Positions 15,166 through 44,680 of a stretch of DNA of 64,000 bases are shown piece after piece. The DNA lies in assembly GCA_008632985.1 (NCBI GenBank), contig QPGO01000068.1:248001-312000 (forward strand), written 5' to 3'. Position 1 is the first letter of the stretch. The number at the start of each line of letters is the position of its first letter. A model generated the notes under the pieces. It saw only the letters and a list, made by a program, of their open reading frames with translations, had not been told where the DNA came from and ran no database searches. Source of the DNA: Psammoneis japonica. Its lineage: Eukaryota. The position numbers were made by a program, and so were the translations under genes.

Positions 15166-15260
15166 CTAATGACCACATGCTGTGTGCACAAGAAAAAACA
15201 ATTCACGTGATTTTGTCATGGAACTCGCATTCACCAAAAGCTTTGGGGGGGTGGGGGACC

Positions 15261-23000: not shown

Positions 23001-23179
23001 GGCTCTCAAGTTGTGTTTCCTTCCACGTCATGTGGCAGCAACAAAGATGCAGGAGCTTGTCTTGTCTCTTCAAGGCAACTGGTCAATCAGCAAAGCAAAA
23101 ATTTTGCTGCCTTGAGTCAGCACCCTTTTGCTGTGATGTTTGAAATTTCAAGTTTGACTGTTGCATGCAAGAAGTGACA

Positions 23180-24530
23180 CAAGGCCCCAAGCTCACAAGA
23201 CAAGCCTGGGAGCACACCAAACCATTGCTCTCAAGGTGTCATGTGGCCCCTGCTGGGGATGTTCAGTGCCCTGAGCCTGCTCTTGTTGCCACCCTTCCAC
23301 TCTCATGTTTGAAATTTCTGGTCAAAAGTTGGCAAGGAGAAAGTGAGGTGAGGCCACAACTGCACAAGACAGGCCTCAGAGCACTCAACCACAGTTCTCA
23401 AGGTGTCACCTGGGCCCCACTGGGGATGTTCAGTGCCCTCAGTCTGCTCTTGTTATGCCTGTTTGCCCCACAATGGGGCCCTTCCATTCTTGTGTTTGAA
23501 ATTTCTGATCAAAACTTGGCAGGGAGAAAGAAAGGCAAAGCCCCAACTGCACAAGGCAGGCCTTGGATCACCCAACCATGGCTCTTAAGGTGTCGCGGGG
23601 ACCCCACTGGGGATGTTCAGTCGGTGCCCTCAGCCTGCTCTTGATGTGCCTGTTTGCCCCACAATGGGGTCCATCTGTTCTCAAGTTTGAAATTTCTGGT
23701 CAAAACTTGGCAGGAAAAAGAGAGTTGAGGCCCCAACTGCACAAGACAGGCATTTGAGCACCCAGCCATTGCTCTCAAGGTGTCACCTGGGACCCACTGG
23801 GGGTGCTCAGTGCCCTCAGTCTGCTCTTGTTGCATCTGTTGGCCTCACCTTTGAAACCTCAATTTTCTTGTCCATTGTGTGCAACAAGTGATGAAGAGGC
23901 ACAAACTGCACAACAAGACAAGTCTTGGAATGCCCAACCATGGCTCTCAAGGGGTCACTCGGGACCTGCCAGGGATGTTCGATGCTCTCAGTCTGCTTTT
24001 GTTGCATCTGTTCACCCCACAATGGGGTCTTTTCATTGCGATGGTTAAAATTTCAAGTTTCTTGGACATTGTGGTGGGCCATTCAAAAAGTGAAATGAGG
24101 CTTGAACTGCACAAGGAAGGCAATCATGGTTCTCAAATTGCCCCCTTTGCTTGAGATGCACTGGAGATGTTCAACACTCTCAGCTTGCAATGTTGTCATG
24201 TTTGTTGGCTCTGCCATTGGGTCCTTCCACTCTGGGGGACAAAGTTTCATGATGTCTGAGCAACCCTTTTGTGAAACAAGTCACATGACAACACAGGTGC
24301 ACAAGACAGGCCCATGACCACTCAACCATGTTTCTCAGAGTGTGCCCTGGGACCCACTGGAGATGTTCAATGCCCTCAACTTGCAGCTGTTGTGCTGGTT
24401 GGCTCTGCCATTGGGTCCTCCCACTTTGATTGTTGGTGTGTCAGTGATTTGCTTTTGTGTGTGAAAAGTGACATGACATGACATGACAAATGCACAAAAC
24501 ATGCCCATGACCACTCAACCACAGTTCTCA
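23180..24530. repeat. Tandem array of about 8 diverged 170-200-bp units
   Basis: Recurrent CCCCAACTGCACAAGACAGGC...CAACCATGGCTCTCAAGGTGTC...CCCACTGGGGATGTTCAGTGCCCTCAG near 23184, 23352, 23540, 23729, 23898, 24099, 24295, 24487. Confidence 0.85.
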
Positions 24531-25399
24531 AGCACACTTCATCTGATTCAAACAGTGCTCAACATCCAGCTGTCAAACACAACATGACAGCTTGCAAACA
24601 AAAAATTGTGCAACAATTCAAGCTGAAAGAAAAACTCATTCAAGGCAACCCAAATCATTGAAATCTGTGCAAACAGAAAATGAACGGAGCCAAAAAAATG
24701 ACTTCTTGCACAATGATGCAGAGATTCACAACCAGGCTGACTGGCTTGGCATTGCACCAGAAACACACCATTGCTGCCACACAAATCAACACAAAACACA
24801 AGATGCATCCAAGCATCCTGTGTGAAATGACAGCATTGCAAAAATGCACCAACAATGGACAGACTGTGCGCACCCTGACAAAGAGAAGAAATGAGAAAGG
24901 CAAGAGTGCTAAAGTGAGGTTTGAAAGCAAGCCGTTTTCAGAGCAATGCAAAAAACTGATGCAATTGCACACTCTTGAAACTCAGATGAATTGGCACAAT
25001 TTGCATGAGCAGGAAGCACCACATTGCAAGGTTGCACAAAGGCAAGTGGAGGCAGTGTGATTGTGAAACAGTTGCCAAAAACATGCAAAACTCATGAATT
25101 GTCTGCTTTCCTCTCATCAGAGGCATTGGTGTGGCCCGACTCACACAACGAAAAAAGCCACCTGCTGTTGTTGAAAGATGAAACCTGCTGGGAGTCAGAC
25201 ACCTGTCCAAGCATGGACACAGATTGGAGAACAACACCATGCCATCACAGCCAAGAACAATGAGATGATGCCATGTGGACCACAAAAATCTGTGCCAAAA
25301 GTGCGTGCAAGCACAAATGAAAACACAATGGAGCAAAGACAAGAAAGATTGCATCAAGAACATGCAGCATGAAAAGTTGATGCCATCAGAAGCTCAAAC

Positions 25400-27960
25400 T
25401 GCAAAATGTGCAAATTCAAAATGTCAGCAGCTCAGCTTGTGAAAAAAAAAGATCAGTGAGATTGATTTGCATGGCTGTTCTTAGAAATGAACAACATCAG
25501 CAATTTGTCACACACTTGCTGTTGTTAAGATCAAAAACTGACATTGACCACATTGCACCAAATGTCATTGCTTGCTTTGCAATGGCTTGACAATTGCTGC
25601 CTTGTTGACACATGCAAAATCAAACTTGTCAAGATGAAATGTGCTGTCAGACCAAATTTCATTGAGCATTGTTTCCCACTTTGCCAAATGGCTGGATTGT
25701 CAAAATCAATTCAACAGTGATTGATGAGAACTTGTCAAGAACACAAACCTTCTCATGAAGCACAGAGATTAACTCTGAACAAGAGCAAATGCATTTTCCA
25801 AACAATCCAGCTAAAAAGGACACCAAACTGCAACACTGATGTGTCCATGGGAAATTCGCAGGGGTGTGTGAAGCCATGCTGCATGAAGAATCAGTGCGCA
25901 TGTGTGTGACTGGTGCTCTTGAGTGTTTCAGCAGGCTGTTCTGTCATTTGTCACACCAAAGAAAGATTTGATGGCACAATTTGTTGATGATTTCAGGGAG
26001 CTGAATGAAAGGATTAAAGACTGCCTTGCCCAACTTCTGATGTCCAAGATGTGCCATTGAAGCTTGATGGCTTGTGTGGGTGACATCATTTGCTGGATTT
26101 GAGTGTGGGACGCTGCTGCATTTGACTTGACAGTGGCAGCTGAGAATGTGCATGCTTCCCATGAGGCAAGTGCAAGATGAACATCTCACCAGTGGGCTCA
26201 TGTGACTTGCCTGATGTTTTTCAAGCAAATGTGTCAGGGCTCAGAACTGTTTGAAAATTTGTCATTTGTGCATGTGCGCTTGGACAATCTTTTTGCAGTT
26301 GCCAAAAGCACTTGTGAAAACAACTCAGAGAAACCAGCAGCTGTGCTGGCACAGCATGCACATGATGCTGGACTCAAATTCAATGCATGAAAATCACTTT
26401 TTTTTGTCAGACCCAATTGAAGCATCTGGGTCATTTGGTCAACTGGGACAGAATGCATCCAATGTGCCTTCCAAAGTTGAGGCCATTGAATGCCCTGCAA
26501 AGCCTGTTGACAAGCAGCAGCTGTGCTCACATGTTGGTCTGCTCAGCTGCTGTTGCAATGCATTGCTGAGACACTCTGAAATTTTGGCACCACTTGCAAG
26601 ACTTGCAGGTGGGGCATCTAAATGGGAGTGGACATCCATTGAAGATGAGGCATTTGAAACTGTCAAACTGGCACTGTCAGATGATGTCTTGTCAGTGCAT
26701 CCAGATTTTTCAACAAACCATTTGAGATCCACACCAGTGCTTCTAAATGCCAACTTGGAGCAGTGAGATCACAAGAAAATAAAACTGTTGACTTTTGCAG
26801 CACAAAGCTTGACAATGTGCAAACAAACCGCACAAAACAACAGAGAGAATCACTTGCTGTCATGGAGACATTGAAAGAATTTCAAATGATGCTCCTTGGA
26901 CAATGTGTGATTGTTTGTGCTGATTGCAAAAATCTCGTGTGTGAAGCATTCAGTGCTGGACGCATCATGCCTTGGCAACTGACATGTGAAACATGCAAGC
27001 CAGAACTCCAACACATTGAGGGTTGCCATGACCTTGTCACAGATGCCCTCAGTTGTCTGGTGCTTCTTCCAAGTTTGGAATCTGAGTGCAACCCAACAGC
27101 ATCATAGATGTCAGACGCACATCCTCCACATGAAGCACTTGCTTTGGATGCAATGGCTTCACCTGCAAGCTTCAGAAAAATGCAAAAAGAACAGCAGCAA
27201 AACAAGTGCTTGGCACAGAATGTGCAGCACTCCAGTGCACTCTTTGTCTGCATGTGTCATGGAAAAGATGCATCACCACAGCTGACATGTTGTCAGGACA
27301 AAATCATTGCACTTGAGGCATTGAGACAGCCATCAACTGAGTGGCACTGTGAGCAATCGTGCTGCCCTGGCAAGACAAGCACAGAAACATCCTTTTGCAA
27401 AGCACTTCTGCTGGCCTGGCATGAGAGCTGCAGGGGCACACCGTGTCCATGCATTGAATGCAGTCAATGCCAGAAGACAAAAAACACCAGACACTGCATT
27501 GAGATCAAGTGATGTGGAAAGGACACTTTGCAGCTTTGGGCAGCAACCATGATCCACCCCACAAAAATGTGGTTTGAGATCAAGGAAGTGTCCGCCAAGT
27601 GAGCAGATGTCACAGCAAATGTCACAGAACAATCATGGCCACACATGTGCCTGTGGCCAAGCAAGGTGATTTGTGAAACCATGGCAATGAATTCATGGCT
27701 GCTGAGTTCAGTGACACATCATGATCAAGAATGACTGTGACATCACCCAGAAACCCACAAGCAAAAGAAATCTGCAGGTGAGTGCTGCAATGGAATGTGC
27801 ACAAAAGAACATGTGGTGCATCTGCTTTCAGTGCAAGATGTGAAACTGGACAAGGATGATCCATGGAGTGGCACCCTGTCTGCTGCAGCCTTTGCTGCAA
27901 CAGCTGCAGCACATGCAGCTGCATGGGTGAGCCCTGTGCAGTCAGTCTTCAGATGCACAA
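25400..27960 (+). mobile_element. Degenerate Ty3/Gypsy pol (RT, RNase H, integrase)
   Basis: FVTPKKD..QFVDDFRELNERIK; KHLGHLV; HPDF; DFCSTKL..RESLAVMETLKEFQMMLLGQ..VCADCKNL; HGNEFMAAEF; DPWSGTLSAAAFA, in Gypsy domain order. Confidence 0.85.
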
Positions 27961-28131
27961 CGCAGTGCAATTTTGTCCATTGCTCACTGTGCCAAGTGGA
28001 AGTGTGCCCAAAAACAACAAAATGTGGAACTGACTGTTGTGCAGGTCCAGCCAGAGCAGCTCGTGTTTGTGACACTGCTTTTTTGCATGCAGGATGGTGT
28101 GCTGACAGACACGCACGCACACACACACACA

Positions 28132-31100
28132 TGTTGAACAAATGAAATCATCCACAAGTTGAAAACTGGCAGATGTGCAGTCATGAAGATGTTGAGGACA
28201 TGAAGCCAATTCCTCATCAATTGATCCAATTGATTGCAATTCAAAGGGACTGCAAAACATTCAGAATCCCTCTGTTGAGAGCTGAAAGTCATCTGTTCAA
28301 TGCTCAACACCAATGGGAAACCACTCCACTGCATGCTCACAATTTGTGAATTCACTTCACTGCAACAACCAAACTCTCCATCAGCCCCAATGCTCTGGTG
28401 AACATTGTCAGCTCCAGCTCTGATGGCCAGTGGTCAGGCATTTTGACATCTGCACTGAGCCAGACAGAAGAGATGACCAGTCATCAACATGTTTTTTCTG
28501 ACACCTGCTCAGGCCATCACAGGCATTCTTGACTTTGTCAAAAAGGCACATCAAGCCATTTGCAACAAGGCAGTTGAAACAATCATGGAAAATGGCTTTG
28601 ACTGGACACAATGGAAACTGTTTCTGTTCCTCAAGACCCTCAAAGATCAAGCTGCTAAGAATGGTTGGAATGAAGATGATGGAATCCTGATGATTCCTGA
28701 CAATCCAACAGACATCATGTTGGACACCACCAATTTGTTGACACACTGTGCAGTCAGATTGAATTGGACCTCATCTGCAAATGCAAGTGCTTGTGCATTG
28801 ATCAACCAGTGAGGCCACCACAAGACACAAGGATGCTTGTCCACCTTCTTGTGCACACACTTTCAGAAGGAAGCACGACCAGGATTCCAGTCTGGGAAAA
28901 GCAGCAAGAGATTGTCAAGAACAACAAGACACATCTGTTGGGAAACCTTCTGTCAAAGGTGACAATCCAACACAACTGCAACAAGCACCAGGATGAATCT
29001 CAGCAATCTTGACAAAAGTGTTGGCACAGTCTCAGGCAAGATCATTGAACTCAGTCAACATGTGCTCTTCCTGTTGCAAGCTCTCAAGTCTCATGGTGAG
29101 ACTGTGGAAGATCTTTGACTGAACTCATTCAAGGGGCACCTCACAGCATGTGGCAAGACATTTGTTGATTGCGCACATTGCAAGCAAAACAAGTGTGATG
29201 AAGGAAACAATGTAAACCCTGACAAAATGATGTGAGTGTTGCACAGTTGACAAGCACAAGGAGATGGCAAGGATGGAAGAATGGAGCACCCCATCCCTCA
29301 AGGAGGAGAAAATTCTGGCTCTAGAAGCCAAGGTTGATGCCCTCAAGAAATCATTGCAAGGCAAGAAACCTGATTCTAAGAAGAGAGGAAATGCCAAGAA
29401 TCACAATAAAAGAGGAAAGAAGACTTCTGGTCTGAAGCCAACTTGGTTGGAAAATGATGAAAGACCCACAAACAATCAACTTCTTTACAAGCCCCAACAC
29501 TGGAATGACAAGCCGTGCTGTCATTGTCACAAGGACACAGGCGGAAAGTGGGGTGGAAAGTGGCAGATCCACAAACCATCAGCATGTGAAAGAAAAAGCT
29601 TTGTTGCCCAAAAACTTGGAGGTGCAAAAAAAAAAAGTCCTCCCAAGAAGGGACAAGAGGTGCTGTCGACCAAGAAAACCCAGAAGGACCTCAAGCTGCT
29701 GAAACTGTCTAAAGCTCTCACTGCCATTGCAAATGAAATTGAATCCTCCAATGAAGAATGACTGGTGGAGCAAGGCAGCAAACCTGACTGTGAATGGGGA
29801 ATCCATGGAGTTGCCATTGGCATGATGTCATTGGCAATGTGGCGCGCAACTGCACTTGTGGCTGGACCACTGTTGCTGCCACCAATGCTGTTTGTGTGGA
29901 TGGCTGCAACCTGCAATTGGATCTCCATCACAGTTTGTGAATTGACAAGGGAAGCAATTGCAAATTCTGTTCCAAACAAATTTGTCACCGGAGCTCATGT
30001 GTTGCTGACAATTGTCATTTTTTGTCTCATTGTTCTCCTTGGCAAGGATCTAGAAAACCCAAATCCGTGCTGCACTTCACCACAAAGCAATGGAAGAAAT
30101 TCAGAAGATTGTTGTGGCAAGCCAAGTCAAGCATGCAATGGATGGGAAACAGAGTTGGTCAAAGTGTTGAAAGAAGAATTGATCAACTGTCCACAACCAA
30201 GCAATCCTGAAGAGGGAGAATCAGGTGAGTCCAAGAGTTGTCAAAGCTGATCAACAACAAACATCACAGAAGACATTCAACAGGCTGGCAGGCATGACTG
30301 CAGCACTGGCTGTCCTGGCAGTCTGCATGACAGTCCAGAATGAAGCTCTCAAATGAGAAAACATGACTCAATTTGACATGGATTTGGGACCTGCAGGCAT
30401 GGACAACTGATGCACTGGATGCATGTCCAGCTCAGCAACAGACTTTGTGAGCAAGCTCATGCCAAGTGAGCGAGCTGTGAAAGGATTTGGAGGGTCAAGA
30501 ACAAAAGGAGTCATGACAGGCACATTGCTCTGGCAATGGCATGATGACAATGGGGCTGGCTGCTCACTTGTTTAAAATCCCAAACTCGCACCATGCACCC
30601 AATGGCAAGGTTGTTTGTCTGTCAAGTCCCCAACACTGGGCAAAGACAGAAAAGGACTGCAAGCCAATTGAGGGTGCAGGGAAAGCACAGACTCCAAGCA
30701 GCACACTTTGCACTGGAAAGCCAGAAGAAAAATAAACTTGATGTTCCCCTGAGTCCAGAAACAAACTTTGCAATGTTCAGTCTTGCTCCTGGCTGTCAAA
30801 AGTTCAAAGCCTTCTGCACTGAATGTGGAGTCAATGATGCCACTGAAGTTGATGATCCTGTCAAAGCAAGTGAGGTGAACATTGTGAGCAATGATGAAGA
30901 GGACAATGGTGAGGAACAAGAGCCCAATGACTCAGGGTTGACGACACACACCTGGACCATGGATCCAATCAAGGCTGTCTTGCACCATGCTGAGAGTGAC
31001 AAACATGCCTCAGGGTTGGAGGACAACACTTTGGTTGCCACTCCATTCAATCTGGATGGACCATCTGAGGATGCAGGTGGAACTGGTCCACCTCAAATCA

Positions 31101-34100
31101 TGACAGACAAGGAAGATTGGCAGAAAAAAATGCACTGGCAGAATCATTGAGACACCACAAAAAAGGGACACATCTCATTCTGGTGGAAACTGCAAACAAT
31201 GGCAGAGCAGGGAGTCATCCCAAAACCAAAACATTGGGTGGAATGTAACACACCTGCTTTGCCATTCATGCATGTTTGCCAAAGCAACTGAGCACAAGTG
31301 GCAAGACTGAAACAAGAAGGCTGGTGATCAATGAAAGCCAACTTGACCCAGACAAGTGGTGTCAGTGGACCAAATGGTCTCACCCACACTGGGGTTGATT
31401 GTGCAAATGGCAGGGTTCCTGACAACCAAGCCAAGGTGCAAGTGCGCAACAGTGTGTGTCAACCAACACTCCTGTTTCAGCTGCACACATTTGCAAAAGA
31501 CTGCAAGCACGGAAGAGATGTTGGAAGGCAAGAAAGCTTTTGAGTTGATGGCAAAAAATTGTGGAGTCAAAACTCTTGCTCACCATGGAGACAATGGGAT
31601 GTTCAAGGTGAAGCAATGGGTTCAAGCATGTTGAGACCAAGGCAAAGCCTGACATTTGCAGGTGCCAATGCACACCAGATGAACGGCGCAGCTGAGCACT
31701 GCATCCGCGCGCTGCAGGAACATGCCTGCAGCATGCTCACACATGCAAACTGGCAATGGCCCTCAAGTGTCACCACCAACCTGTGGCCATGCTCTGTCCA
31801 AATGGCAGTCAATGCAACCAATGAAATGCCCAGCTTCCAAAATCCCAAATGCTGCACTCCAACTCAATTGCACACACAAACGGACATCTCAAGCAACCCC
31901 AAGCACTGGACCCCATTTGGGTGCCGGTGCATGTCAAACAAACCACCCATTTCACAGGTGGAAGCAATGACCAAGGGTTGGAACACACTTAGAGACAAGC
32001 CCAATGCATGGCAGGAACATTGCCTTGTTAGTTCTCAATGGAGCAACAGTGCTCGTGAGTCCCCAGATTCATGTGAAATGTGATCCTGGCTTCCACACAA
32101 TGAAGCAGGACAAGTTTGATTCAATGTGGCAAACAAAAGCCAAATTTGTGAGTCAGAGAGAGGTTGACAAACCAACCCAAGGCAAGAAGAAGCAGCTGCT
32201 TGCAACTGAAGCCACCAACAAGTGGAGCATTCCTCAGCAACAGGAAGCAATGCCTCCCTCAGAGAGAGCATCAAAGAAGAAGAGGTTCAAGAAGAATCCA
32301 AACCATGCCAAAATTCTTGACAAAATGCTGGGACCACCCAAAGCCAACAAGCAAGGTGGCAATGCTGCAGCAGCTGGTTTGCTTCCGGCACAGCCAAATG
32401 AACAGGCAGAATCTTCCAAGAAGTGCCTCCACAGCAAGAGGGTGAGTCTGAACCACCCAGAGTGCCAAGGACACCAGAGGTGACAACAAGATCAGGGCAA
32501 AAGAGCCAACCAGTTGAGCGGTCAGTGCAAGCAATGACAGCCAAACTTGGCGCCAATGCCAAAGGGACAACAGAGGGAAAGACATTTTCACCAGTGGCTT
32601 TCTTTCCATGCAATGAATCACCCACATTGGATGACACCAACCCTCTCATGGCACACAAAGCTTCAACAGACCTCAACACCATGCACATGCACCAAGCAAT
32701 GAAACAACAAGATTGCAAGGAACCCATTGATGCAATGCACTGAGAGGTCAAGGTGCAATGAAAAATGGAAACTTTGCCATGGTTCCAAGATCAATGGTGG
32801 CTGACAAGAGAAAGACACTTTTCCAGTCTGCATGGCAGATGAAATGAAAGTGAAATGTCCTGACCCGCTCTGTCAAGAAATGGAGGGCAAGATTGAACAC
32901 AGATGGATCAAGAATGAGAAAAGGGGTTGACCACAGCAAAACACATGCCCCAGTTGCATCCCACAACTCAGTGCACATGCCACTTGCCATGGAAGTGGCA
33001 CACAATTGGCACACCAAGCAACTGGATCATGTGAAGGCCTTCCCACAGGCACTGGCAGAGCGTGAAATGTGTGTGCAAATTCCAAAGGGATTTGAAACCC
33101 ACAAAGGAGATTCAAAAGACTTCATGCTGTGCCTGCATTGGAACCTGTGCAGACAGAAACAAGCCAGATGAGCTGGAACAAATGCCTGGTTAACAAGCTG
33201 ATAAAGCAGCCAGGCTTTGTCCAGTCCAAGGTTGATGAGTGTGCACATCACCAAGGCAAAACAATGCACTTGCTGTGCACTTGGGACAGTCCATTGGTGG
33301 GACCTGACAAGGGAAAAATTGATCAAATTGTCAAGGAACTGAAGGCCTCCAAACTGGACATCACAGCAAAGGGAGATGTGCAAGACTTCCTTGGTGTCAA
33401 CATTGAAAGAAAAAGCAACATTGCTGTGCATCTTGTGCAACCACACCTCATCAACCAGATGCCAATGGACAAAGTTGCCATCCAGGCACTCCAACTGCAA
33501 ACCCTTTGATGGACACTTCAACCACAGATCTGTCATTGGCAAACTGAATTGTCTGGAAAAGGCTGCAAGAAGTGACATTGCATCAATCACTTGTCAATGT
33601 GCACAATTCATGACAGACCATAAAAAGGAACATGGTCAAGCACTCAAATGGCTGGGACACCACATGAAGGGAACAAGAGACAAAGGCACCATGCCTCGAC
33701 CACAAGAAGGCAAAGACTTGGAAGTGTGCGTCAATGCCAATTTCAGCGGTGATTGGGACCCTCAAGGGGCAGCTGCCGATGGTGATGCTGCCAGGTCCAG
33801 ACATGGATGTGTTGTCATGTGCGCCAGACATCCCACACTTTGGAAATCTCAGCTGCAAACAGAGATTGCATTGAGTTCAACCAAGAGTGAGTGCACTGGA
33901 TCATCACATGCATTGAGGAGTGCAACACCTCTTGTGGAGTTGCTCAAGGAAATGAAGCATGATGGCTTCCCAGTGCGCACCTGCAAGCCAATGGTTCATT
34001 GTCAAGTTTTTGAAGACAACAGCAGAGCTCCAGAAATTGCAAAGACCCACAAGCATTGTCCAAGAACCAAACATTTGAGAGCAAAGCTGTGCCACTTCAA

Positions 34101-34661
34101 GGATCCTGTGTCAAGGGGAGAAATGTCTGTCCATCTCACAGACACAAAGAGGGGCAACTCACAGATTGTCTTGCAAAGCCAGCAAATGCAGACATGCTTC
34201 TCTCATTGTGTCCACTGATGATGGGGTGAACCCACTGCATTTTGCTGGGTGTTGAGTGCAATGTCCCAAATTGCAGGGCACATCTCTGATCAGCTGGATC
34301 ACATCAAAGGGCGGTTGCCCAATGTCCTGAACAAGACGGAGTGTCAAATGAATGACATCATCCTCAAGTTGAAAACTGGCAGATGTGCATTCATGAAAAC
34401 ATTGCAGACATGAAGCACCAATTCCTCATCAGTTGATCCAATTGACCGCAATTTAAAAGTTGCTGCAAAGTGTTCAGAATCCCTCTGTTGAGTTCTGAAA
34501 ATGATTTGTTGAATGCTCAGCACCAATGGAGAGCCACTCCACTGCATGCTCACAATTTGCAAGCTCACTTTGCTGTGACAACTGAACTCTCTGTCAGCCC
34601 CAATGCTCTGGTGAACGTTGTCAGCTCCAGCTCTGATGGCCAGCAATCAGGTGTTTTGACA
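28132..34661 (+). mobile_element. Full-length degenerate Ty1/Copia LTR retrotransposon; LTRs 28132-28448 and 34342-34661
   Basis: TG...CA LTR pair of ~320 bp; purine-rich tract before the 3' LTR; gag, protease (FDMDLGPAGMDN), integrase (VSVDQMVSPT, HGDNGMF, HQMNGAAEH), RT (ARLNTDGS, QLDHVKAFPQA), RNase H (WKSQLQTEIALSSTKSE, FEDN). TSD ambiguous because the flank is (CA)n. Confidence 0.93.
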
Positions 34662-36845
34662 CACAGCAATCTGTGGCAGATTGCACCCTGTCACCAGCAG
34701 GGTGCATTGCTGCTTGTCATCCCAGTTCATGGGGAAACATGCAGTGTGCATTGCATTGGCACATGGCACAGACCATGTGCATCTGAGGATTGTGCACACA
34801 GCAGCAGGGTGATGACATGCACTTGGAAGCACAGGGGGACTCTGTGGCTTGGCAACTTGGCAAGATCCAAGCAGCAGCGAGTGTCTGCAAACTGATGCAC
34901 AAACAGGGTTGGAGAAGCTGTGCACAATTGATTGATTTTGTGGAGTCCAAAATGCACACTAACAGGAAATTCACGTGATTTTCATTGACACAATTTTGCT
35001 TTTTGGGGTGGTGAGCCCATCTCACAATTTTCACAAAGTGATTTTTGCAAGCATCTGTTTTCGTTGCCTGACAGTGCATGAGGCATCTGACCTCATTGTT
35101 GCCTTCCTCTTTCTGCACAACTGAACAGACCTCCCAGTTGGGAGTGCAGCAACTCCAGCTCTTTTTTCTCCTGCCATGGAGCTGAGTTTGGGCTGCAAGA
35201 CAACAGAAAGACAACGGGTTGACACTGTGGGGAGGTTGTTTTTAAACCAGCACTTGCAAGGAATTCTGATGCGGGTGCTGATGACATGAGTGCAAAGTGT
35301 TTGGAGTCCTCCTCTCAGCTCAAAGCACAAGTGGCACAGCTGGATTTTTGCCTGCAGGTGGTCAAAACCTCAGTCAGCAAAGCTGTCTGTCGATCAACTC
35401 AAAACATCTAAAGCTGCTGAAGCGCAACCCACCCAAGCAGATGAAGAGAGCTTTTTTAGCCACCCTGCCAACAGGTCTGGGCAAGCCTCCCTTTCCAAAC
35501 ATTGTGTCGGTGAAAATGCTTTCTGACCACCAATTTTTTGGAGGAAGCACCTCAAGCTTGCAAGTGTTGCAGGAAAAAATCTGAGCACTTCACATCTCAC
35601 CCAGTTCAAATGTTCTTGTTTGTCTTGCTCCACAACAACCTGCATGTTTGCTGCATTGCAAAAGCACATTTTGTGGCACCTCAAACCAACAAGCACACAA
35701 CTCACACAAAAACAATGTGTGTTGAGCAGAGCAACAAATGAGCACTCAACAGAGTGCAGGTTGCTCTGCACCAAATCAACACAACCACTTCCAACAGGTG
35801 GATTTCCTGAAGCTCATGTTTGCCTCTCATTTTGTCAAGCTCCTGATCTTGAAAACTTTTCCCCATGCTTGTCAAGACCGATGTTTGATGTGTCCCCAAC
35901 AAAAAACCTGAGTCACCAATTGAAGCACAATTCATGCCAGACTGGAGCCAAGAAAGTGCATCTCATCCCAGCTTGGCCCGCTGACGTGCTGATGTTGACA
36001 GGTTTGTGGCTTCTTGATGCACCAAAGCAGAGGACATTGAAATGGATGAGTGATGTGATTGCTTTCCTTGGCTTTGTGACAACAGCACAGCACAATCAAC
36101 AACTGCAAAGGAAAAGGCCTCTGATGGCAGGAGCAGTGCACTCTGGAAAGGACTTTGTTTTTTCTTTCTGCACACAGGTTGGCTGCTGGTTGATGGCACC
36201 ACATCTGTCATCCAGAGAGTCAGAGAACTAACCCTGATGAGCAGCTTGGTTGCTGACAAATCTGGAACAGATGGCACAATTTTGCACAAAAAAGTGCTCT
36301 GAGGCACCCTCAGATGCAAACACAATGGACTTCTTGTGTGGAATCACTGGACATTCCGAGAGCTGTCCACTTGTTTCCATCCATGTGCAGATCACCCAGG
36401 AGCAAATCCAACAGCAACAAAGCATTGGCAATCACTGTGAGTTGCCCCAAAGGTGGAAACAGAAGCCATTGTCTGTGAACATTGAGCTGCTTGCCCATTT
36501 TTCATCAAGGCAAAGGAACCACTTGTCCTCCAATGACCCATTCAGATGATGACTCAGTCATGAAGTGTTCTTCTCTCTACATACATACAAAGGGTGCCGT
36601 GGGGCCTGTGGCCAGCTGCACAGCAGCATCGAACCCTTGTGCACGACCATCTCTGGCCCCACCCCAGCCAACTTCATGCGGCAACTACACATCAAAAAAG
36701 GGAAGCCACTAAAATGCGGTAAGTGCACACATCCAACATTGAAAAATGGTGGAGTTGCTATGGTTATCAGTTGTCAAGAGAGAACACAACAAACTAACAA
36801 CAGAGGGTGACCTCAAATCAATGTTCTGGCGAGGGCACGCCGGTC

Positions 36846-39037
36846 CTAAGCACATTCGACGCGCAGCTCAGAGAGACCGGGGAATGGAACGGAAAAGGGG
36901 CCAGAGGTTCTCGTTCGGGTGTATGTTGTGCCGCCACGCGCGCATTCGCCAGCATGGTGGCACAAAGTCACCTTTGTGTTCACTCCCAGGAGAACATTAC
37001 TCGTCGAGTCGTTGCCAGTCCAGCACGAGATGGATGGAAAGATCCAGTTGCCTTCCCGAACAGAACATGTCTTGACAGGCCAGCCAGCTTCAAGCGTCTG
37101 CAACACAACCTCACACTCACCAGGACGTTCCTTGCCGTCGCATGCCGGAACGATCACTGTTGGGAATGGCTTCCGCCAGCTATTTTCCGGCGAGAAGGGA
37201 CAAGTCCCGCCTGAGCCCCAATTTCCGCAGCAATAGCCAGGACAGGTGGGACTGTTGCCACCAGGAGGAAGATACTGAGGGTTGGCAACCCTTGTGTTGA
37301 CGGGCGGGCATAAATCCTGGTACAGCTTGTCGTACGCATAGCAAGACCCAGTCAATGGCGTCTTGGTCACCTCATTGAACAATGCATATCCTTTGCAGAA
37401 CGGTGACAGGGGAATAGCTCGGAGAATGACGAGATCATTTCCATTGACTGTGTAGACATATCCGTTAGAGTACCACAAGCCGCCATCTTGGAGCCCGTTG
37501 CCGCCTTCATCTGGCACGGTGTGATGTGGGAACTCATGCCAACCAACCAATATCGGCGAGGTGGCATCTTGCACTTCGTAGGCGCTGATATCTGCTTTCC
37601 CCCAGTGGTCCTTGACGTAGAGAATACTGTTCTCGTCATCAAGTGCAATTCGAAACGCAAGCGGGTGGTTCGTAACACCGCCAAGGAGTTTCGGATTGGC
37701 GGCGTTTGCACCGTCAATGTCGAAGATATAGAATCCTTCGCCATAACCACTGGCATCCCTTGCTGTTGCATAAAGTCTCTTCCGATCACGGGAGACAATC
37801 ATTTCATACGGGGGAAATTTTCCTCCGGGTGGTCTGAAAGATCCAACCAGATAAGGCGCTGTCCTCTTGTTTGATATATCGTATATGTTGACGGGAGCAT
37901 TAACAGCATTGTCACTGACCACGTATGCATAGTTTCCGTTAGTAACCACCTCCCAGCCGTCCCCGGGAATGCGAGAGCTACGTGAAGTAAGGCGCAGTGA
38001 ATAATCACCCGTAATCTCATAGATTGAGAGGTAATATCCAGAGTAAAACAGGTAATTTCCCTCCGATATCAGACCCTTGTGGCAGTATGTTTCCTCAAAG
38101 CAGCTTGGTTTCATCACGGGTTTTCTAGGATATATATCCAAGATGTTAATCATTGAGAGTCCACCGAAACGGTGTGCTGTCCACAAGTGATCGCCAGAAA
38201 CCCATAAGTCATGAATGTTGCGCCCAAAGCACGTGTCAATAAACGCAACATATTCGGGCGCAGCCCTGTCTGAAATGTCGTAGATCAACACTTTATTGGA
38301 TCGATCCACGCCGAGATACGCGTGCGTTCCTTCCACTTGCATTCGCACTCTGAAGGGTGGGCTATGACGCAGCAGGGTTGGAATTAACTGCGTTTTGGAC
38401 ACAACAGGCATTGACGGCGCGGTACGTCGTGCTGCGATGGAAGAGTCCCGATCCTCCTTGGCGTCTGCGTCTTCATACGGAACAACATTCTGACAGTCAA
38501 GCGAAAACCGATAAGTGGATTAGACTTCAATGAGACTGCTGTACAAAGCTCGTTGATGAAAACTCACAGTAAAAAGCGGCTTTTTCTCGGGATCGCTGGT
38601 TTCATTTGTTCCAAACGCGCTTCCCTGTACCCGATCTGACACAGGTTGAAGACGCCGTGCATTGGAACCGCTTGCTCGTTGATGGAAGTGCCCCGTAGCA
38701 AGTGGCTTTTTCTGGGGTTCATTGGTATCATCTGGTCCAAATGCGGCGTCTCCTTGGACCCCATCTGATACAGGTGTAAGACTCCGTGAATTGGAATCAC
38801 TTGCTTCTTGTGGCGTAGCCTACGAGATTACAAAAGCCGGGATAAGATCAGGTTAAACGCCAAATCTGTTTGTTCTTTGTACATCAAACATGCGGTCGAT
38901 AAGAGACGTGTTTAGGAACTTACCTCGTCGTTCCATGTCTCCGTCTCAGCAAGAACGTCAACCATCTCACTTGCTCGAAGGAGGACTGATGTCGCAAGGA
39001 TCCAGCCGCACAACCGGTTTCGCTTAAAGAGTTTCAT
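36846..39037 (-). CDS. Putative secreted LVIVD-repeat (beta-propeller-like) protein with a Cys-rich C-terminus, ~669 aa; exons 39037-38924, 38819-38568, 38489-36846
   Basis: Signal-like N-terminus MKLFKRNRLCGWILATSVLLRA; phase-0 GT-AG introns keep frame; repeats such as VEGTHAYLG..VLIYDISD..PEYV, NGNYAYV..VNIYDISN..PYLVG, FYIFDID..PKLLG. Confidence 0.75.
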
Positions 39038-39833: not shown

Positions 39834-41049
39834 GTAGACATCGTTTAGTCTGGGCACCAGGACCCCGGGACTGAATCCCGGGTTTTTTGAATAAGGAAAC
39901 TATGCATTCGACCAAGAAATTACATTTTTCATAGGAACGCACAGCCGTTGACAAAAGACACAAACGTCCGTTGAATCAACAACATGTCCCACAATTGACT
40001 GCAGGTGCAACCATTTCGGTCCTCACATAATACGTGCTTTTACTTCGATGATAGAGGATCAATGTCTCTTTGATGTGTTCGTGTTCGAAAGTGAAAAACC
40101 CGGCATTCAGACCCGCGCGCTTGTGACAGCTGCACCCATTGTTGGCCAAACCCTTTGCCGTTGGTTTCCTGTTGAGACCTTTTCAGAACTCGGCACAGAT
40201 TGACAGTGTGGCATTGTGTTGCATCGAAAGTGTGGAAAGTGTGTTGGCACTGCAAACAGGGCACTGCAGCCACAAACAGAAATCCCGGGACTGAATCCCC
40301 AGATTTTTGGGGCGCCACGACCAAACGTTTCATGATGACTTTGAACCTGGCCTGGTTGCACGACGCTCGCGGAGCGGCCACTGCTGCACAGTCTGCTGTG
40401 GAAATGGGATTTTGTGCTGTGATGTCATCTTGCACGTAGATTCCACAGCAGCAAGCGCCAGTGCTAAAAAGCTGCTCAAATGCACGCGACTCTCGCGCTC
40501 GTGGATTTTTGGAGTCACCCATTCTTGAGAATCTCCCCACTCATTTTCGAGAACGCTTGCCTTTCATTTTCGAAAATGCTGAGCTTGCTCTCCCAAGTGA
40601 TGCAGTCCACACAAACTTTGTGGCAAATGCCATGAGCAAAGCATCGTCTGAACCACATTGTGCGTTGTTCAAATGCGATGCACTCCATCATGAAAGCGGA
40701 AGGGGGAAGCTCACCCCCGAGCCACATCCAAGATGCTGACACAAGAGCAATTCCATCTCATCAAACACCTCCTTTCACATTGTGAGTCTGGAGATGCAGC
40801 AGCCAGAGATGCGTTCCAGCTCCAGGTGGGACCTTGCACTGCTGCACTGTGACATCAAGAGTTTTTTGGATCTCATCGCATGTCGCGCACGCACATTTCT
40901 GCATGTGACATTCTACGAAATTGTTTCATGCTCCCCATTTTGTGAAGCCAAAGGCTTTCTTTTTTCAACATTTGCAAGAATGAAAATGTGCTGGGTGTGC
41001 TCTTTGTGTCTGCAGAACACACCCGGGCAAACTGTTGATGATGTGCTTC

Positions 41050-42420
41050 AAGTGTGAAGGAGGAGATGCGTTCGTAAAATTGCTTCTTTTCTGCTGGCAA
41101 TCATCCACATTTTCATTGCTCAACAAATTTGCTGCGGAGCTCACATGTGGAATTCTGTGGGCTCAATGTCACATGGAGTCCCACCCAGGACTGGAACCCG
41201 TCTGGACTTGATGTCAAACAATGGAGACGCAAGCACCCTGAATGGAACCAGACGTCAAAGAAACACTTCATTCGTGACAGATTGATGCATCGCCAAGACA
41301 CAAAGGTTCACCCGCCGAAGGACAAATGTGTCATCCACGAACTCACATGCTTTAACATCACATTGCAAGCTCATGAGATGGAAGGCCATCTCCGTTCCGG
41401 CAAAGCAACATTCAGCTGTTTGTCTGATGATCACTGCAACACAACTGCCAACACAGTTTGTGTTTTTTGCAATCATTGTCCTCATTGCATTTCTCTGAAG
41501 TCCAAGAAAAAAGTTTGCATCTGTTGTTAAAGATGGGGGGGAGAATTGCAATGCTTTGCAGCACCAGTTTGCAACACCCTTTTTTTGTTGAGCTGTCGTC
41601 TTGAAGATTCCCATTTCTGGAATCATCCAATGACTTCCATGACGACATCAATTTGTGCGCTCTTTTCATGGAACCCACTCTCATTGGCATCACCGCCACC
41701 ACTGCTTTGTGTTGTTTTGTTGTTGACAACCATGCTTCATTTCTGTGCAACCCCCACTCAGCCCTCTGACAAAATGGGTCGGTTTTGCATCGGCATCACA
41801 GCAATCCCTTGGAGAGCAAAATTCTTTGTCATCTCCCGACAAACTTTCAGCCATGACAGAAGAGAAGCATCACAAATGCTGTTTTCCAGCCAAGGCTTCA
41901 GGCATGGATGAGGTGGGCAGTCCTTCCCATGCCAAAATGTCCAAGGTTTTGATGGAAAAGGAGCACGATCACATCCTGTGCTTGCTTGATCACATGGAGA
42001 TGGGTGACATTGACAAGGGTCTCAATGCAAAGCAGTGGTGCTGCAAACATCCCAAGTGGCACCGCATGAACAACAAGCACCATGTGAGTCATTCTCAGGA
42101 GGGTCCTTCATTGCGTTTTTGCAATGGAGAGGAAATGCCCAAACAAGTTGTTCACCAGATGATGTGCTTTGACATGCTCAAACAAATCCACTCATTGTCC
42201 GGTCACAAGAAGGTGGCATCCACTCATGCTGTTGCAAAGGACAAGCACTTTGATGTCACCCAAAGCATTGTGAAGGCTTTCATTGACACTTTCCCTCAAT
42301 GTTCTTTGAAGCAGCCACGTGTTCCAAAGCACAAAGGTGCCATTGGTCCCACAATGTCTGATCATTTTCATGACAGGGCACAAGCAGACTGCATCGACTG
42401 CACAGAGGATCCCCAAACTC
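41050..42420 (+). pseudogene. Two tandem remnants of a Ginger-like integrase N-terminus (HHCC zinc finger); the second runs into the start of the catalytic core
   Basis: AHEMEGH...FCNHCPHC (~41370-41490) and IHSLSGHKK...IVKAFIDTFPQC..K...GPTMSDHFHDRAQADCID (~42190-42400); both are preceded by KQWxxKHPxW. Confidence 0.65.
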
Positions 42421-42449
42421 ACAGCCATTCTGATGCTGTGCATCTGCTT

Positions 42450-44030: not shown

Positions 44031-44239
44031 GCTGTCAAAAGAAAAGAGGTTTTTGAAATCAAATGCTCACTTGTGGCAGTCAACAAAAAATGGAGTCATT
44101 TTGAATCATGTTGACACACGAGTGGGAAGAAAGAACACAGGTTCTTGTCTTCACCAACCACAGGCCTGTCCGGGGTCCGGGAATCATTTTAATCACCAAC
44201 CCTGCTCATTTCAATTGCCGACAATTGGCGATTGAAATG

Positions 44240-44680
44240 AGAAGCATTTGAGCACATTTGAGCACTTTTGAGCAAATGAGCAGCAACCAACAAGTGATCA
44301 ACCGAACGTGCCATGTCCTGCTGTTACATGCCAATCAACTCTGAAGTCTCCAAACCACAAAATCAACAGGCCTTTTTCTTTTGCTCCCATTTCTGGAATT
44401 CGGGATGCATTTGTCAGACTTGCCGTGGCCCTGAAGCAGGCGACACTGCACATTTGAGCATGCCTTCCAATGAGATGTGCTTGGCCTTGCTGTGTTTCCA
44501 TTTCTCTTCTTCTTTGTTCAGCATCATCATGTCTGTTGGTCAAGGAGAATTCAAATGAGCAGCATTTGAGCACGATGATTCAAATGAGCAGCATTTGAGC
44601 ACATTTGAGCAAATGAGCAGCATTTGAGCACATTTGAGCACATTGTTTGAGCTCATTGTTTGAGCACTTTTGAGCACAAC
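44240..44680. repeat. CATTTGAGCA 10-bp minisatellite clusters (~44240-44285 and ~44553-44680)
   Basis: Repeated CATTTGAGCA / AAATGAGCAG units. Confidence 0.85.

What the first reader, a model, noticed from the sequence alone, without database searches (positions are those of the whole stretch)
31330..34130. Conserved tyrosines of Copia pol systematically read Cys or His
Seen versus recalled consensus: RCKCATVCV (RYKYATVYV), VDHSKTHAPV (VDY.ETYAPV), QLDHV (QLDYV), LEVCVNANF (LEVYVDADF), RHGCVVMCA (RHGYIIMYA), SECTGSSHAL (SEYTGLSYAL). The Gypsy remnant shows the same (HPDF, FCSTKL, KHLGHL), as does the second Copia (GFSCHS, ATGHA). TAY->TGY or CAY gives the direction: TpA was ancestral and was mutated on either strand. 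Such changes should inactivate RT and RNase H without needing stop codons.
Basis: partly seen in the sequence, partly recalled or inferred. Interest (0 to 1): 0.8.

Follow-up and report, generated by a model that had tools for sequence, protein, structure and literature searches.

The report
TpA-erasing hypermutation of diatom retrotransposons
In this diatom-like genome the dead transposon DNA has had nearly every TA step rewritten to TG or CA after insertion, a repeat-directed mutation process that appears to have been described so far only in one unrelated alga.

Summary
All eleven quoted peptide strings are present. Against intact homologues, none of the 62 conserved tyrosine columns in the two Copia elements keeps Tyr: 30 read Cys and 19 read His, while Phe is kept in 52 of 66.

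The cause is a window-wide signature. Three blocks, about 40 of the 64 kb, have TpA o/e about 0.05, CpG about 0.2 and TpG/CpA about 1.8-2.0. Their borders are sharp and the host genes between them look normal.

A>G occurs after T in 32 of 62 cases, against 7 of 296 after C, A or G. The paired LTRs differ by TG<->CA double mismatches, so the change happened in DNA after integration, on either strand. CpG decay is a second, separable component.

Residual TAs show a wider motif, R-T-A-Y: 0 of 139 residual TAs lie in RTAY. Two environmental transposon contigs show RTAY-only loss with CpG intact.

The only printed parallel my searches found is a 2026 preprint on Bigelowiella natans. This is therefore a second lineage and a new member of a very recently described kind. 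The enzyme is unknown; a DNA adenine deaminase is inferred.

The parts
12800..36570 (.). Hypermutated block 1 (about 23.8 kb). TpA is almost absent and CpG is depleted. It holds unidentified DNA (12.8-25.9 kb), a 187-nt tandem array, the Gypsy remnant, Copia 1 and a 1.9-kb tail.
   Evidence: TA positions and 250-bp counts. 2-kb o/e for TA is 0.03-0.08 and for CG 0.09-0.27. No Pfam hit in read-through frames of 12.7-22.9 kb.
25983..27104 (+). Gypsy-type pol remnant (RT/RNase H).
   Evidence: PF17917/PF17919 on 26685-27104. tblastn of P0289 matches 25983-27077; 0 of 15 Tyr positions are kept (single homologue, weak).
28132..28464 (+). 5' LTR of Copia 1.
   Evidence: Aligns to 34342-34680 at 82% identity over 339 columns, with 11 TG<->CA double mismatches.
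30306..34149 (+). Copia 1 gag-pol remnant (integrase, RT, RNase H) in several frames. It contains the flagged stretch 31330-34130.
   Evidence: tblastn of P0001/P0007/P0011. RVT_2 on 32854-33506. 0 of 23 conserved Tyr kept.
34342..34680 (+). 3' LTR of Copia 1.
40060..45890 (.). Hypermutated block 2 (about 5.8 kb). TpA o/e is 0.02-0.10 and CpG only partly depleted (0.34-0.62). No recognisable protein domain. It shares a 70%-identical repeat with 14037-15164.
52720..64000 (.). Hypermutated block 3 (at least 11.3 kb; runs to the end of the window). It holds Copia 2.
53311..53482 (+). 5' LTR of Copia 2.
   Evidence: Aligns to 60236-60407 at 91% identity over 174 columns, with 3 TG<->CA doubles, 1 TA-vs-TG/CA and 1 CG-vs-TG/CA.
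55892..60089 (+). Copia 2 gag-pol remnant.
   Evidence: tblastn of P0273. gag_pre-integrase on 56734-57288 and SH3_retrovirus on 57540-58142. 0 of 39 conserved Tyr kept.
60236..60407 (+). 3' LTR of Copia 2.
36849..38519 (-). Unmutated host gene (LVIVD-repeat protein) next to block 1. It serves as an internal control with normal TpA and CpG.
   Evidence: Pfam PF08309. TA and CG counts.

Best explanation
Repeat and transposon DNA of this diatom-like genome has undergone a targeted mutation process that acts on DNA after integration. It converts 5'-TpA-3' into TpG or CpA (A:T>G:C on either strand) almost to saturation. Host genes and unique intergenic DNA a few hundred bases away are untouched.

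The preferred site is the palindrome R-T-A-Y. On each strand, an A preceded by T and followed by a pyrimidine becomes G, and a purine two bases upstream helps. A slower, separable CpG>TpG/CpA decay, as expected for methylated transposons, is superimposed on it.

Together the two processes destroy all Tyr codons, many Arg, Ile and Thr codons and all TAA/TAG stops. They inactivate RT, RNase H and integrase.

Shown: the signature, its context, its limits, its timing after integration and its occurrence on both strands. Inferred: that it is an enzymatic genome defence, a mirror image of fungal RIP and of the same kind as the TpA hypermutation measured in Bigelowiella natans. Also inferred: that the chemistry is adenine deamination in DNA by a TadA/ADAT-like deaminase, which I put at about 0.5 given the process.
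For: (1) Composition. In 40,003 bp of trimmed blocks there are 139 TA, 494 CG, 4577 TG and 4638 CA. In 22,600 bp outside there are 838, 1332, 1629 and 1643. By my arithmetic on those counts, TA+CG loss is about 80/kb and TG+CA gain about 86/kb. The borders fall within gaps of about 140-700 bp between TAs: 12794|12933, 36229|36578, 40052|40437, 45397|45895, 52716|53419.

(2) Ancestral state. 0 of 62 conserved Tyr are kept; 49 of 62 are Cys or His.

(3) Context. A>G occurs in 32/62 after T against 7/296 otherwise (P = 7e-22). T>C occurs in 19/62 before A against 1/118 (P = 3e-9). An A at codon position 1 is G in 39/59 when the previous base is T, against 9/171 otherwise. Of 175 changed conserved columns of Copia 1, the TA rule explains 37 and the CG rule 32. 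Control rules explain fewer: AT>GT/AC 17 (partly overlapping T|AT sites), GC>AC/GT 8, and the RIP direction 0.

(4) After integration, on both strands. The LTR pairs carry 11 and 3 TG<->CA double mismatches. Over four repeat pairs, 31 of 44 double-transition mismatches are CA<->TG.

(5) Wider motif. 0 of 139 residual TAs are RTAY, whereas RTAY makes up 30% of 15,227 TAs in 72 Copia-relative loci. RTAR/YTAY sites survive at 6.9% of that baseline density and YTAR at 23.5%. An A followed by T or C gives T|G in 38/146, and an A followed by A in 1/84 (P = 9e-8). In that last class C|A is raised to 36/84.

(6) Independent DNA. Two of the 72 metagenome loci (L053, L057; a Copia RT plus a DDE_Tnp_4 cluster) have RTAY at 0.2-0.3/kb against 13.4/kb in the other 70. 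RTGY+RCAY is raised by about 10-12/kb, YTAR is unchanged and CpG o/e is 0.81. Tyr is kept in 3 of 17 columns, and all three kept codons are preceded by a pyrimidine. The two copies are 99.75% identical, and 5 of their 9 mismatched positions (4 of 8 events) are TA-type.

(7) Not an assembly error. Contigs of run X1, at word depth about 66 as in the flanking genes, reproduce the block. A 3991-nt contig covering 32998-36988 has 3 differences. Of 7 single differences in the block, 5 are CpG-type and 1 is TA (X1) against CA (window).

(8) Precedent. In a mutation-accumulation experiment on B. natans, 230 of 231 mutations in two integrated viral regions were A>G or T>C, all at TpA, and TpA-poor CDS were enriched for RT and DDE domains (abstract, Results and Discussion read).
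Against: - No enzyme or modified base was identified. No genome is held for this window, so deaminase or TET/JBP genes could not be sought.
- No rate was measured. The age and tempo are inferred only from LTR divergence.
- Sequence alone cannot tell A deamination on one strand from T modification on the other.
- 13 of the 62 Tyr columns carry other residues (F6 and others). The homologues are only 41-55% identical, so some columns may never have been Tyr in these families.
- In the window, CpG decay feeds the same TG/CA pool. This blurs product-based context estimates.
- Some residual TAs may be new mutations rather than survivors.
- Block 2 and 12.7-22.9 kb have no recognisable transposon domain. 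'Repeat DNA' there rests on one shared repeat and on contig depth.
- X1 may be the sample the window was assembled from, so it excludes a consensus error but is not an independent isolate.
- Only 2 of 72 metagenome loci show the signature. That scan kept the best 80 of 570 matches, which favours intact copies.
- One of the four TA-type differences between L053 and L057 (CTAA>CTGA) is in the disfavoured orientation.
Confidence: 0.8

Rival explanations
1. The targeted process is the same, but the chemistry is on thymine. The T of R-T-A in silenced DNA is enzymatically oxidised or otherwise modified (a TET/JBP-type 5hmU/5fU route) and mispairs with G, giving T>C on either strand.
For: The site is a palindrome, so every observation can be read equally as T>C with a purine before the T and an A after it. 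From memory, not from any call: dinoflagellate DNA carries 5-hydroxymethyluracil preferentially at TpA and TpC, and 5-formyluracil mispairs with G.
Against: No such modification is known to me in diatoms. 5hmU itself pairs with A. The only experimental precedent, in B. natans, was interpreted by its authors as A deamination, also without proof. Nothing here separates the two readings.
Confidence: 0.12
2. The retrotransposon RNA was hyperedited by an ADAR-like enzyme (A>I) before reverse transcription, so mutated copies were integrated ready-made.
For: ADARs favour a 5' U (stated in the preprint's Discussion). The elements are retroelements.
Against: - Both TG and CA outcomes are interspersed within one element: 32 TG and 19 CA at Tyr sites, with no strand runs.
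- The two LTRs of one element differ at these sites, yet they are copied from one RNA.
- DNA with no retroelement domain, and a DDE-transposon cluster (L057), are hit too.
- The 3' preference is for a pyrimidine, not G.
Confidence: 0.02
3. This is a sequencing, base-calling or assembly artefact at modified bases in repeats.
For: Repeats are where assemblies err. Modified bases can be miscalled on some platforms (recalled).
Against: - Contigs of run X1 at about 66x word depth agree with the window to 3 differences in 3991 nt.
- Outcomes differ between the paired LTRs, which a deterministic miscall would not produce.
- The same signature is seen in public protein representatives (P0135, P0106, P0039) and in two metagenome contigs from other assemblies.
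Confidence: 0.02
4. This is ordinary neighbour-dependent neutral decay or selection against TpA and CpG, acting genome-wide and visible only where selection is absent.
For: TpA is under-represented in most genomes. The host genes here have TA o/e of about 0.5.
Against: - Unique non-coding DNA next to the blocks keeps dense TA. There are 40 TAs in 39025-40052.
- A 200-bp duplicate there keeps GTAT, TTAC and CG in both copies.
- The borders are abrupt.
- In Copia 2 the LTRs differ at only 3 of 174 columns outside TA/CG contexts, while 0 of 39 Tyr codons survive. By my rough arithmetic that is an excess of a hundred-fold or more over background.
Confidence: 0.03

Closest known systems
TpA hypermutation of integrated viral DNA in Bigelowiella natans (Mettrop et al., bioRxiv 10.64898/2026.01.13.699255; abstract, Results and Discussion read)
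   Same: Only A:T>G:C, only at TpA, giving TpG or CpA according to strand. Confined to foreign DNA. TpA-poor, CpA+TpG-rich 1-kb clusters and TpA-poor CDS enriched for RT and DDE domains. Proposed as a RIP-like defence by DNA adenine deamination.
   Different: - Host: a chlorarachniophyte (Rhizaria) there, a diatom-like stramenopile here. In one search, 7 of 7 rows that name an organism are diatoms, with best identity 48% and no 100% hit.
- Targets: there the measured targets were a giant-virus and a virophage insert still holding 3.3% and 9.2% TpA. Here LTR retrotransposons and unidentified repeats are at saturation (0.35% TpA).
- The preprint's main text gives no context beyond TpA and does not mention CpG or diatoms.
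- Here no rate was measured.
Repeat-induced point mutation (RIP) of Neurospora and other fungi
   Same: Saturating, context-specific transitions confined to repeated DNA with sharp limits. Independent mutation of each copy. Inactivation of transposons without deletion.
   Different: The direction and target are opposite. RIP makes TpA from CpA/TpG (C>T), whereas here TpA is destroyed (A>G). The RIP-direction rule explains 0 of 175 changed columns. A 200-bp duplicate in gene-side DNA is untouched. A duplication trigger, a sexual-phase restriction and RID/DIM-2 dependence were not testable.
CpG decay by deamination of 5-methylcytosine in methylated transposons
   Same: It is present here as a second component. 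CpG o/e is 0.1-0.6 in the blocks. Arg goes to C/H/Q/W/stop, and a G after C becomes A in 38 of 60 cases.
   Different: It cannot touch Tyr codons. It is slower and separable: block 2 has CpG o/e 0.34-0.62 with TpA 0.02-0.10. P0039 and P0106 lose Tyr but keep Arg in 25/31 and 17/22 columns. L053 and L057 have CpG o/e 0.81.
APOBEC3 and ADAR editing of retroelements in animals
   Same: Deaminase-driven hypermutation of retroelements, fossilised in genomes.
   Different: Those enzymes act on cDNA or RNA before integration, on one strand, in other contexts (C>T at TC/CC; A>G with 3' G). Here the change follows integration, hits both strands, and is A>G at R-T-A-Y.
TadA/ADAT2 tRNA adenosine deaminases and laboratory adenine base editors
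   Same: The natural target A34 always follows U33. From memory, not from a call: E. coli TadA reads U-A-C-G, and early base editors preferred YAC. That resembles the T-A-Y preference found here.
   Different: These are RNA enzymes in nature. The purine preferred at -2 here has no counterpart in the anticodon loop.

Membership tests
TpA>TpG/CpA hypermutation of foreign DNA (B. natans type) | Mutations are almost only A:T>G:C and fall on TpA, giving TpG or CpA. | tested here: met
   A>G in 32/62 after T against 7/296 elsewhere. T>C in 19/62 before A against 1/118. 0 of 62 Tyr kept.
TpA>TpG/CpA hypermutation of foreign DNA (B. natans type) | Confined to foreign or repeat DNA, with the standard genome spared. 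| tested here: met
   Three blocks with abrupt borders. Host genes and unique intergenic DNA are normal. This covers only one 64-kb window.
TpA>TpG/CpA hypermutation of foreign DNA (B. natans type) | De novo rate raised about 1000-fold, episodic among lines. | not testable with these tools
   There are no mutation-accumulation data. One TA/CA difference between the X1 contigs and the window, and 4 of 8 differences between L053 and L057 being TA-type, only hint at ongoing activity.
TpA>TpG/CpA hypermutation of foreign DNA (B. natans type) | Host encodes an ADAT2-like candidate deaminase. | not tested
   No genome is held for the window.
Fungal RIP | C>T at CpA (TpA gain, CpA/TpG loss) in duplicated DNA. 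| tested here: not met
   TpA o/e is 0.05 and TpG/CpA about 1.8-2.0. The CA/TG>TA rule explains 0 of 175 columns.
5mC-driven CpG decay | CpG loss matched by TpG/CpA gain in methylated repeats. | tested here: met
   CpG o/e is 0.1-0.6 in the blocks and about 1.0 outside. C|G becomes C|A in 38/60. It is a component only and does not explain the Tyr loss. Methylation itself was not tested.
ADAR-type RNA hyperediting fixed by retrotransposition | A>G on the transcribed strand only, acquired before integration, so the LTRs are identical at edited sites. | tested here: not met
   32 TG and 19 CA outcomes are interspersed. There are 14 TG<->CA double mismatches between paired LTRs.
Ty1/Copia LTR retrotransposons (the elements themselves) | LTR pair; RVT_2-type RT; integrase upstream of RT. 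| tested here: met
   LTR pairs. RVT_2. gag_pre-integrase and SH3_retrovirus lie upstream of the RT match. The order on P0001 is integrase 345-650, RT 837-1073, RNase H 1091-1310.

The most novel reading that the evidence does not exclude
Diatoms, and so at least two branches of the SAR supergroup, may possess a natural, chromatin- or repeat-guided DNA adenine deaminase. It would rewrite R-T-A-Y to R-T-G-Y in transposons and integrated viruses, as an A>G mirror image of RIP. It would act independently of cytosine methylation and still be active in nature. Such an enzyme would be the first natural genome-defence adenine editor of DNA with a defined four-base site.
Probability: 0.4. Interest if true: 0.9.

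Novelty: new member of a known kind. Interest (0 to 1): 0.78.

Why it matters
- **Spread.** A repeat-directed A:T>G:C mutator has so far been reported, in the papers I could search, only in one preprint on one chlorarachniophyte (six searches). Finding the same signature at saturation in LTR retrotransposons of a diatom-like genome suggests the system is widespread in marine protists. The two unrelated environmental transposon contigs, at an earlier stage, support this.
- **A sharper target.** R-T-A-Y, with the 3' pyrimidine as the main determinant, is a concrete specificity to test candidate deaminases or thymine-modifying enzymes against.
- **Separability.** TpA loss occurs without CpG loss, so the process is not a side effect of cytosine methylation.
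- **Practical consequences.** Because TAA and TAG vanish, hypermutated DNA yields long spurious ORFs. One example is a 2061-residue database 'protein' with no tyrosine (P0135). Tyr-free, Cys/His-rich gene models and RTAY-free DNA are therefore cheap markers for screening genomes and metagenomes. GC content and transposon ages inferred from such DNA will be biased.

Tried and rejected
- **Own genome:** none is held. No search for deaminase or TET/JBP genes and no genome-wide profile was possible.
- **The listing of cluster members:** switched off. The sources of the Tyr-free proteins P0135, P0106, P0039, P0065, P0072 and P0114 remain unknown.
- **RNA:** no RNA holder was listed. Run X2 looks like RNA, because one of its contigs skips a 78-nt GT..AG stretch at 38490-38567. 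It covers only 36.8-39.7 kb and has no cover on the transposon block. I draw no conclusion on expression from this.
- **Pfam on read-through frames (TGA=X):** nothing at E<=1e-4 for block 2 or for 12.7-22.9 kb.
- **Rfam over the window:** no match.
- **Strand coordination of TG versus CA outcomes at Tyr sites:** none. Copia 1 has 11 runs against 9.0±1.8 expected, and Copia 2 has 16 against 16.7±2.7.
- **TG-versus-CA bias at Tyr sites:** 32:19, P = 0.09. This is explicable by the T-A-Y motif, so I do not claim a transcription-strand effect.
- **Product-based context from tetranucleotide gains:** confounded by CpG-derived TG/CA and by using host genes as baseline. I used it only as a qualitative pointer.
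- **Second Copia against the first set of homologues:** only 23% identity, so a separate search was made.
- **Gypsy:** only one homologue was found.
- **Protein Atlas on the LVIVD gene:** gave only bacterial LVIVD clusters at 0.8, of no use for taxonomy.
- **Earlier findings of this scan:** nothing on this genome or this sequence. The word search returned phage dinucleotide cases that do not bear on this.
- **Mistyped literature search:** one search failed on term syntax and was not repeated.
- **blastn of L057 against the window:** no hit, so those contigs are not this locus.
Full report
**What is there.** The flagged stretch (31330-34130) is the integrase-RT-RNase H part of a dead Ty1/Copia element. 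Its LTRs lie at 28132-28464 and 34342-34680, and its gag-pol remnant at 30306-34149, spread over several frames.

**Test of the observation.**
- An exhaustive HMMER search with the 291-residue RNase H frame gave 5631 hits, of which 150 were listed. I aligned 15 of the 30 hits of at least 1100 residues. I left out P0005, which had ten matched stretches, and took the 15 best ranked.
- I mapped the window onto the closest hit, P0001, by tblastn. Of 1007 mapped positions, 457 are conserved in at least 9 of 15 homologues.
- Of the 23 conserved tyrosine columns, none is Tyr in the window: C11, H6, F2, W1, K1, S1, L1.
- For the second Copia I used 9 of 18 homologues. Of 39 conserved Tyr columns, none is kept: C19, H13, F4, P1, W1, R1.
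- Phe is kept in 52 of 66 columns and Trp in 28 of 31. The contrast between Tyr and Phe has P = 4e-23.
- The homologues have normal Tyr content, median 3.5%.
- The Gypsy remnant could be compared with only one homologue. None of its 15 Tyr positions is kept, but the alignments are poor.

**The cause is a block-wide dinucleotide signature.** Along the window, TpA o/e falls from about 0.5 to 0.02-0.10 in three blocks: about 12.8-36.57 kb, 40.06-45.89 kb, and 52.72 kb to the end. In the same blocks CpG falls from about 1.0 to 0.1-0.6, and TpG and CpA rise to 1.5-2.3.
- The trimmed blocks (40,003 bp) hold 139 TA, 494 CG, 4577 TG and 4638 CA. The 22,600 bp outside hold 838, 1332, 1629 and 1643.
- By my arithmetic on those counts the loss of TA+CG (about 80 per kb) matches the gain of TG+CA (about 86 per kb).
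- The borders are abrupt. They fall in the TA-free gaps 12794|12933, 36229|36578, 40052|40437, 45397|45895 and 52716|53419. They lie within a few hundred bases of intact host genes: PRA1, an LVIVD-repeat protein, an RRM protein and a prenyltransferase alpha subunit.
- Unique non-coding DNA beside the blocks is normal, with 40 TAs in 39025-40052. A 200-bp duplicate there keeps GTAT, TTAC, TTAA and CG in both copies.
- Not all hypermutated DNA is recognisable transposon. Read-through frames of block 2 and of 12.7-22.9 kb give no Pfam hit. Block 2 does share a 70%-identical repeat with block 1, and part of it has very high contig depth in run X1.

**Context specificity against control sites.** At conserved columns whose first two codon bases are fixed by the amino acid, the counts are as follows (P values).

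| Change | Target context | Control contexts |
|---|---|---|
| A>G at codon position 2 | after T: 32/62 | after C 2/87; after A 4/84; after G 1/125 (P = 7e-22) |
| T>C at codon position 1 | before A: 19/62 | before T 1/66; before G 0/52 (P = 3e-9) |
| A at codon position 1 read as G | previous base T: 39/59 | other previous base: 9/171 |

- This explains the many Ile>Val and Thr>Ala changes.
- Independently, a G at position 1 preceded by C has become A in 38 of 60 cases. Arg is kept in only 25 of 88 columns, being replaced mostly by C, H, Q, W or stop. This is ordinary CpG decay. It also accounts for the D>N changes in LEVCVNANF, where the DNA reads GTC AAT GCC AAT.
- Of the 175 changed conserved columns of Copia 1, one TA>TG/CA step explains 37 and one CG>TG/CA step explains 32. 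Control rules explain fewer: AT>GT/AC 17 (these overlap T|AT sites), GC>AC/GT 8, and the RIP direction 0.

**Timing and strand.** The two LTRs of an element are identical at integration. Here they differ by TG<->CA double mismatches: 11 in 339 columns for Copia 1 and 3 in 174 for Copia 2.
- Over four repeat pairs, 31 of the 44 adjacent double transitions are CA<->TG. The other six observed classes total 13.
- The same ancestral dinucleotide was therefore resolved independently in each copy, on one strand or the other, in DNA, after integration.
- TG and CA outcomes at Tyr sites are interspersed with no strand runs.
- These facts exclude editing of the RNA before reverse transcription.
- In Copia 2 the LTRs differ at only 3 of 174 columns outside TA/CG contexts, while 0 of 39 Tyr codons survive. 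The TpA process is therefore faster than background by roughly two orders of magnitude or more. This is my rough inference, not a measurement.

**A wider motif.** The 139 residual TAs are not a random sample. None lies in RTAY (ATAT, ATAC, GTAT, GTAC). RTAY accounts for 30% of TAs outside the blocks and for 30% of 15,227 TAs in 72 metagenomic loci that encode Copia relatives.

| TA context | Share of baseline density that survives in the blocks |
|---|---|
| RTAY | 0% |
| RTAR / YTAY | 6.9% |
| YTAR | 23.5% (TTAA highest, 37%) |

- The products show which neighbour matters. An ancestral A at codon position 1 followed by T or C now reads T|G in 38 of 146 columns. An A followed by A does so in 1 of 84 (P = 9e-8), and there the C|A state is raised to 36 of 84.
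- So, on each strand, an A that is preceded by T and followed by a pyrimidine is the one that changes.
- The preprint's main text mentions no context beyond TpA.

**Independent confirmation from other DNA.** Seventy of the 72 metagenomic loci have ordinary composition (TA o/e 0.34-0.86, RTAY share 0.24-0.37). This gives the ancestral expectation. The other two, L053 and L057, hold a Copia RT plus a DDE_Tnp_4 transposase, come from two assemblies, and have no DNA similarity to the window.
- They have RTAY at 0.2-0.3 per kb against 13.4. RTGY+RCAY is raised by about 10-12 per kb. YTAR, YTGR and YCAR are unchanged, and CpG o/e is 0.81.
- Their RT frame is still open. Of 17 conserved Tyr columns, 3 are kept, and all three kept codons are preceded by a pyrimidine. 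Every Tyr codon preceded by G has become TGY or CAY.
- The two copies are 99.75% identical over 3618 bp. Of their 9 mismatched positions, 5 (4 of 8 events) are TA-type, including one GTGT/GCAT double.
- This looks like the same process at an earlier stage and without CpG decay. It shows that a purine at -2 also contributes.
- Among the protein representatives, P0135 (2061 residues, no Tyr, 0 of 25 Tyr columns kept, C12 H5), P0106 (0 of 17, C8 H5) and P0039 (3 of 23) carry the same mark. P0106 and P0039 keep Arg in 17/22 and 25/31 columns. Their sources could not be looked up.

**Not an artefact.** Contigs of a public DNA run (X1) cover the block at the same word depth (about 66) as the flanking genes. 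They agree with the window to 3 differences in a 3991-nt contig.
- X1 may be the window's own sample, so this excludes a consensus error rather than giving an independent isolate.
- Of 7 single differences in the block, 5 are CpG-type and one is TA in X1 against CA in the window (A-T-A-A>A-C-A-A). The table left 21 further differences unshown.

**Organism.** No genome is held. The prenyltransferase gene finds 402 relatives. All 7 of the listed rows that name an organism are diatoms: Leptocylindrus (name truncated in the output), Seminavis, Cylindrotheca (two rows), Cyclotella (two rows) and Bacillariaceae. The best identity is 48% and there is no identical entry. The genes have few, short introns. 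The window is therefore from a diatom or a close relative without a near relative in that database, and not from Bigelowiella.

**Comparison with what is known.** Six literature searches found a TpA-specific hypermutation in one work only, the 2026 preprint on Bigelowiella natans.
- There, 230 of 231 new mutations in an integrated giant virus and a virophage were A>G or T>C, all at TpA, at about 6e-7 per site per generation.
- TpA-poor CDS were enriched for RT and DDE domains, and an ADAT2-like protein was proposed as the enzyme.
- The present case shares the defining signature and the restriction to foreign DNA.
- It differs in host lineage, in target (LTR retrotransposons and unidentified repeats), in degree (saturation), in the defined R-T-A-Y preference and in the demonstrable independence from CpG decay.
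- It resembles fungal RIP in logic but is opposite in direction, and it fails RIP's defining feature.
- From memory, not from a call: the universal U33-A34 context of the tRNA deaminases TadA/ADAT2, and the U-A-C-G site of E. coli TadA, fit a T-A-Y preference. That favours the deaminase reading.
- A thymine-modification route (R-T-A read on the other strand) cannot be excluded from sequence.

**Verdict.** This is a real, DNA-level, repeat-confined TpA>TpG/CpA hypermutation with an R-T-A-Y core, superimposed on CpG decay. It is a new member of a kind described only this year in another supergroup branch. The enzyme, the trigger and the present activity remain to be shown.

Noticed in passing
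public protein representatives P0135, P0106, P0039, P0065, P0072, P0114: These database 'proteins' related to the Copia pol have 0-0.8% tyrosine. Three of them (P0135, P0106, P0039) have Cys or His at most conserved Tyr columns; P0114 has His at all four of its Tyr columns. P0135 is a 2061-residue ORF with no Tyr. Hypermutated DNA loses TAA and TAG and so yields long spurious gene models. P0106 and P0039 keep their Arg, so TpA loss occurs without CpG loss. Their sources are unknown because the look-up tool was off.
   Followed up: partly
L053:1428-5045 and L057:687-4304: Two metagenome contigs hold the same transposon cluster (a Copia RT ORF plus a DDE_Tnp_4 ORF) at 99.75% identity. Both are almost free of RTAY but have normal YTAR and CpG. 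Of the 8 differences between them, 4 are TA-type. The host organism is unknown.
   Followed up: yes
window 39163-39362 and 39638-39836: A 200-bp direct duplicate (94.5% identity) lies in unmutated intergenic DNA between the LVIVD gene and block 2. It keeps TA (including GTAT) and CG in both copies. Short local duplication alone does not draw the process.
   Followed up: yes
window 40543-41000: Summed contig word depth in run X1 is about 23,900 here against about 66 elsewhere. One contig joins 35146 to 40808. This points to a very high-copy repeat inside block 2. It has no Pfam or Rfam match.
   Followed up: partly
window 23292-23831 (and 23121-24530): A tandem array with a 187-nt unit (2.9 copies at 81%, with more diverged copies around it) lies inside hypermutated block 1. 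Its copies differ partly by CA<->TG doubles.
   Followed up: partly
window 63615-64000: A degenerate tandem array (periods 24-40 nt, built on an 8-nt sub-period) rich in GCCAAC/GCCGAC-like words runs to the end of the window.
   Followed up: no
window 38490-38567 (- strand): A contig of run X2 skips 78 nt with GT..AG ends on the minus strand. This is an intron near the 5' end of the LVIVD-repeat gene, and X2 behaves like an RNA run.
   Followed up: no
window 28539-28540: In run X1 one contig (depth 79 of 139) reads TG where the window reads CA, just 3' of the 5' LTR of Copia 1. This could be an allelic or paralogous copy that resolved the same ancestral dinucleotide the other way.
   Followed up: no
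window 62269-62601 (- strand): There is a weak leucine-rich-repeat match (PF23598, E = 7e-6, below the curated cut-off) inside hypermutated block 3. It may be a host-gene fragment caught in the block.
   Followed up: no
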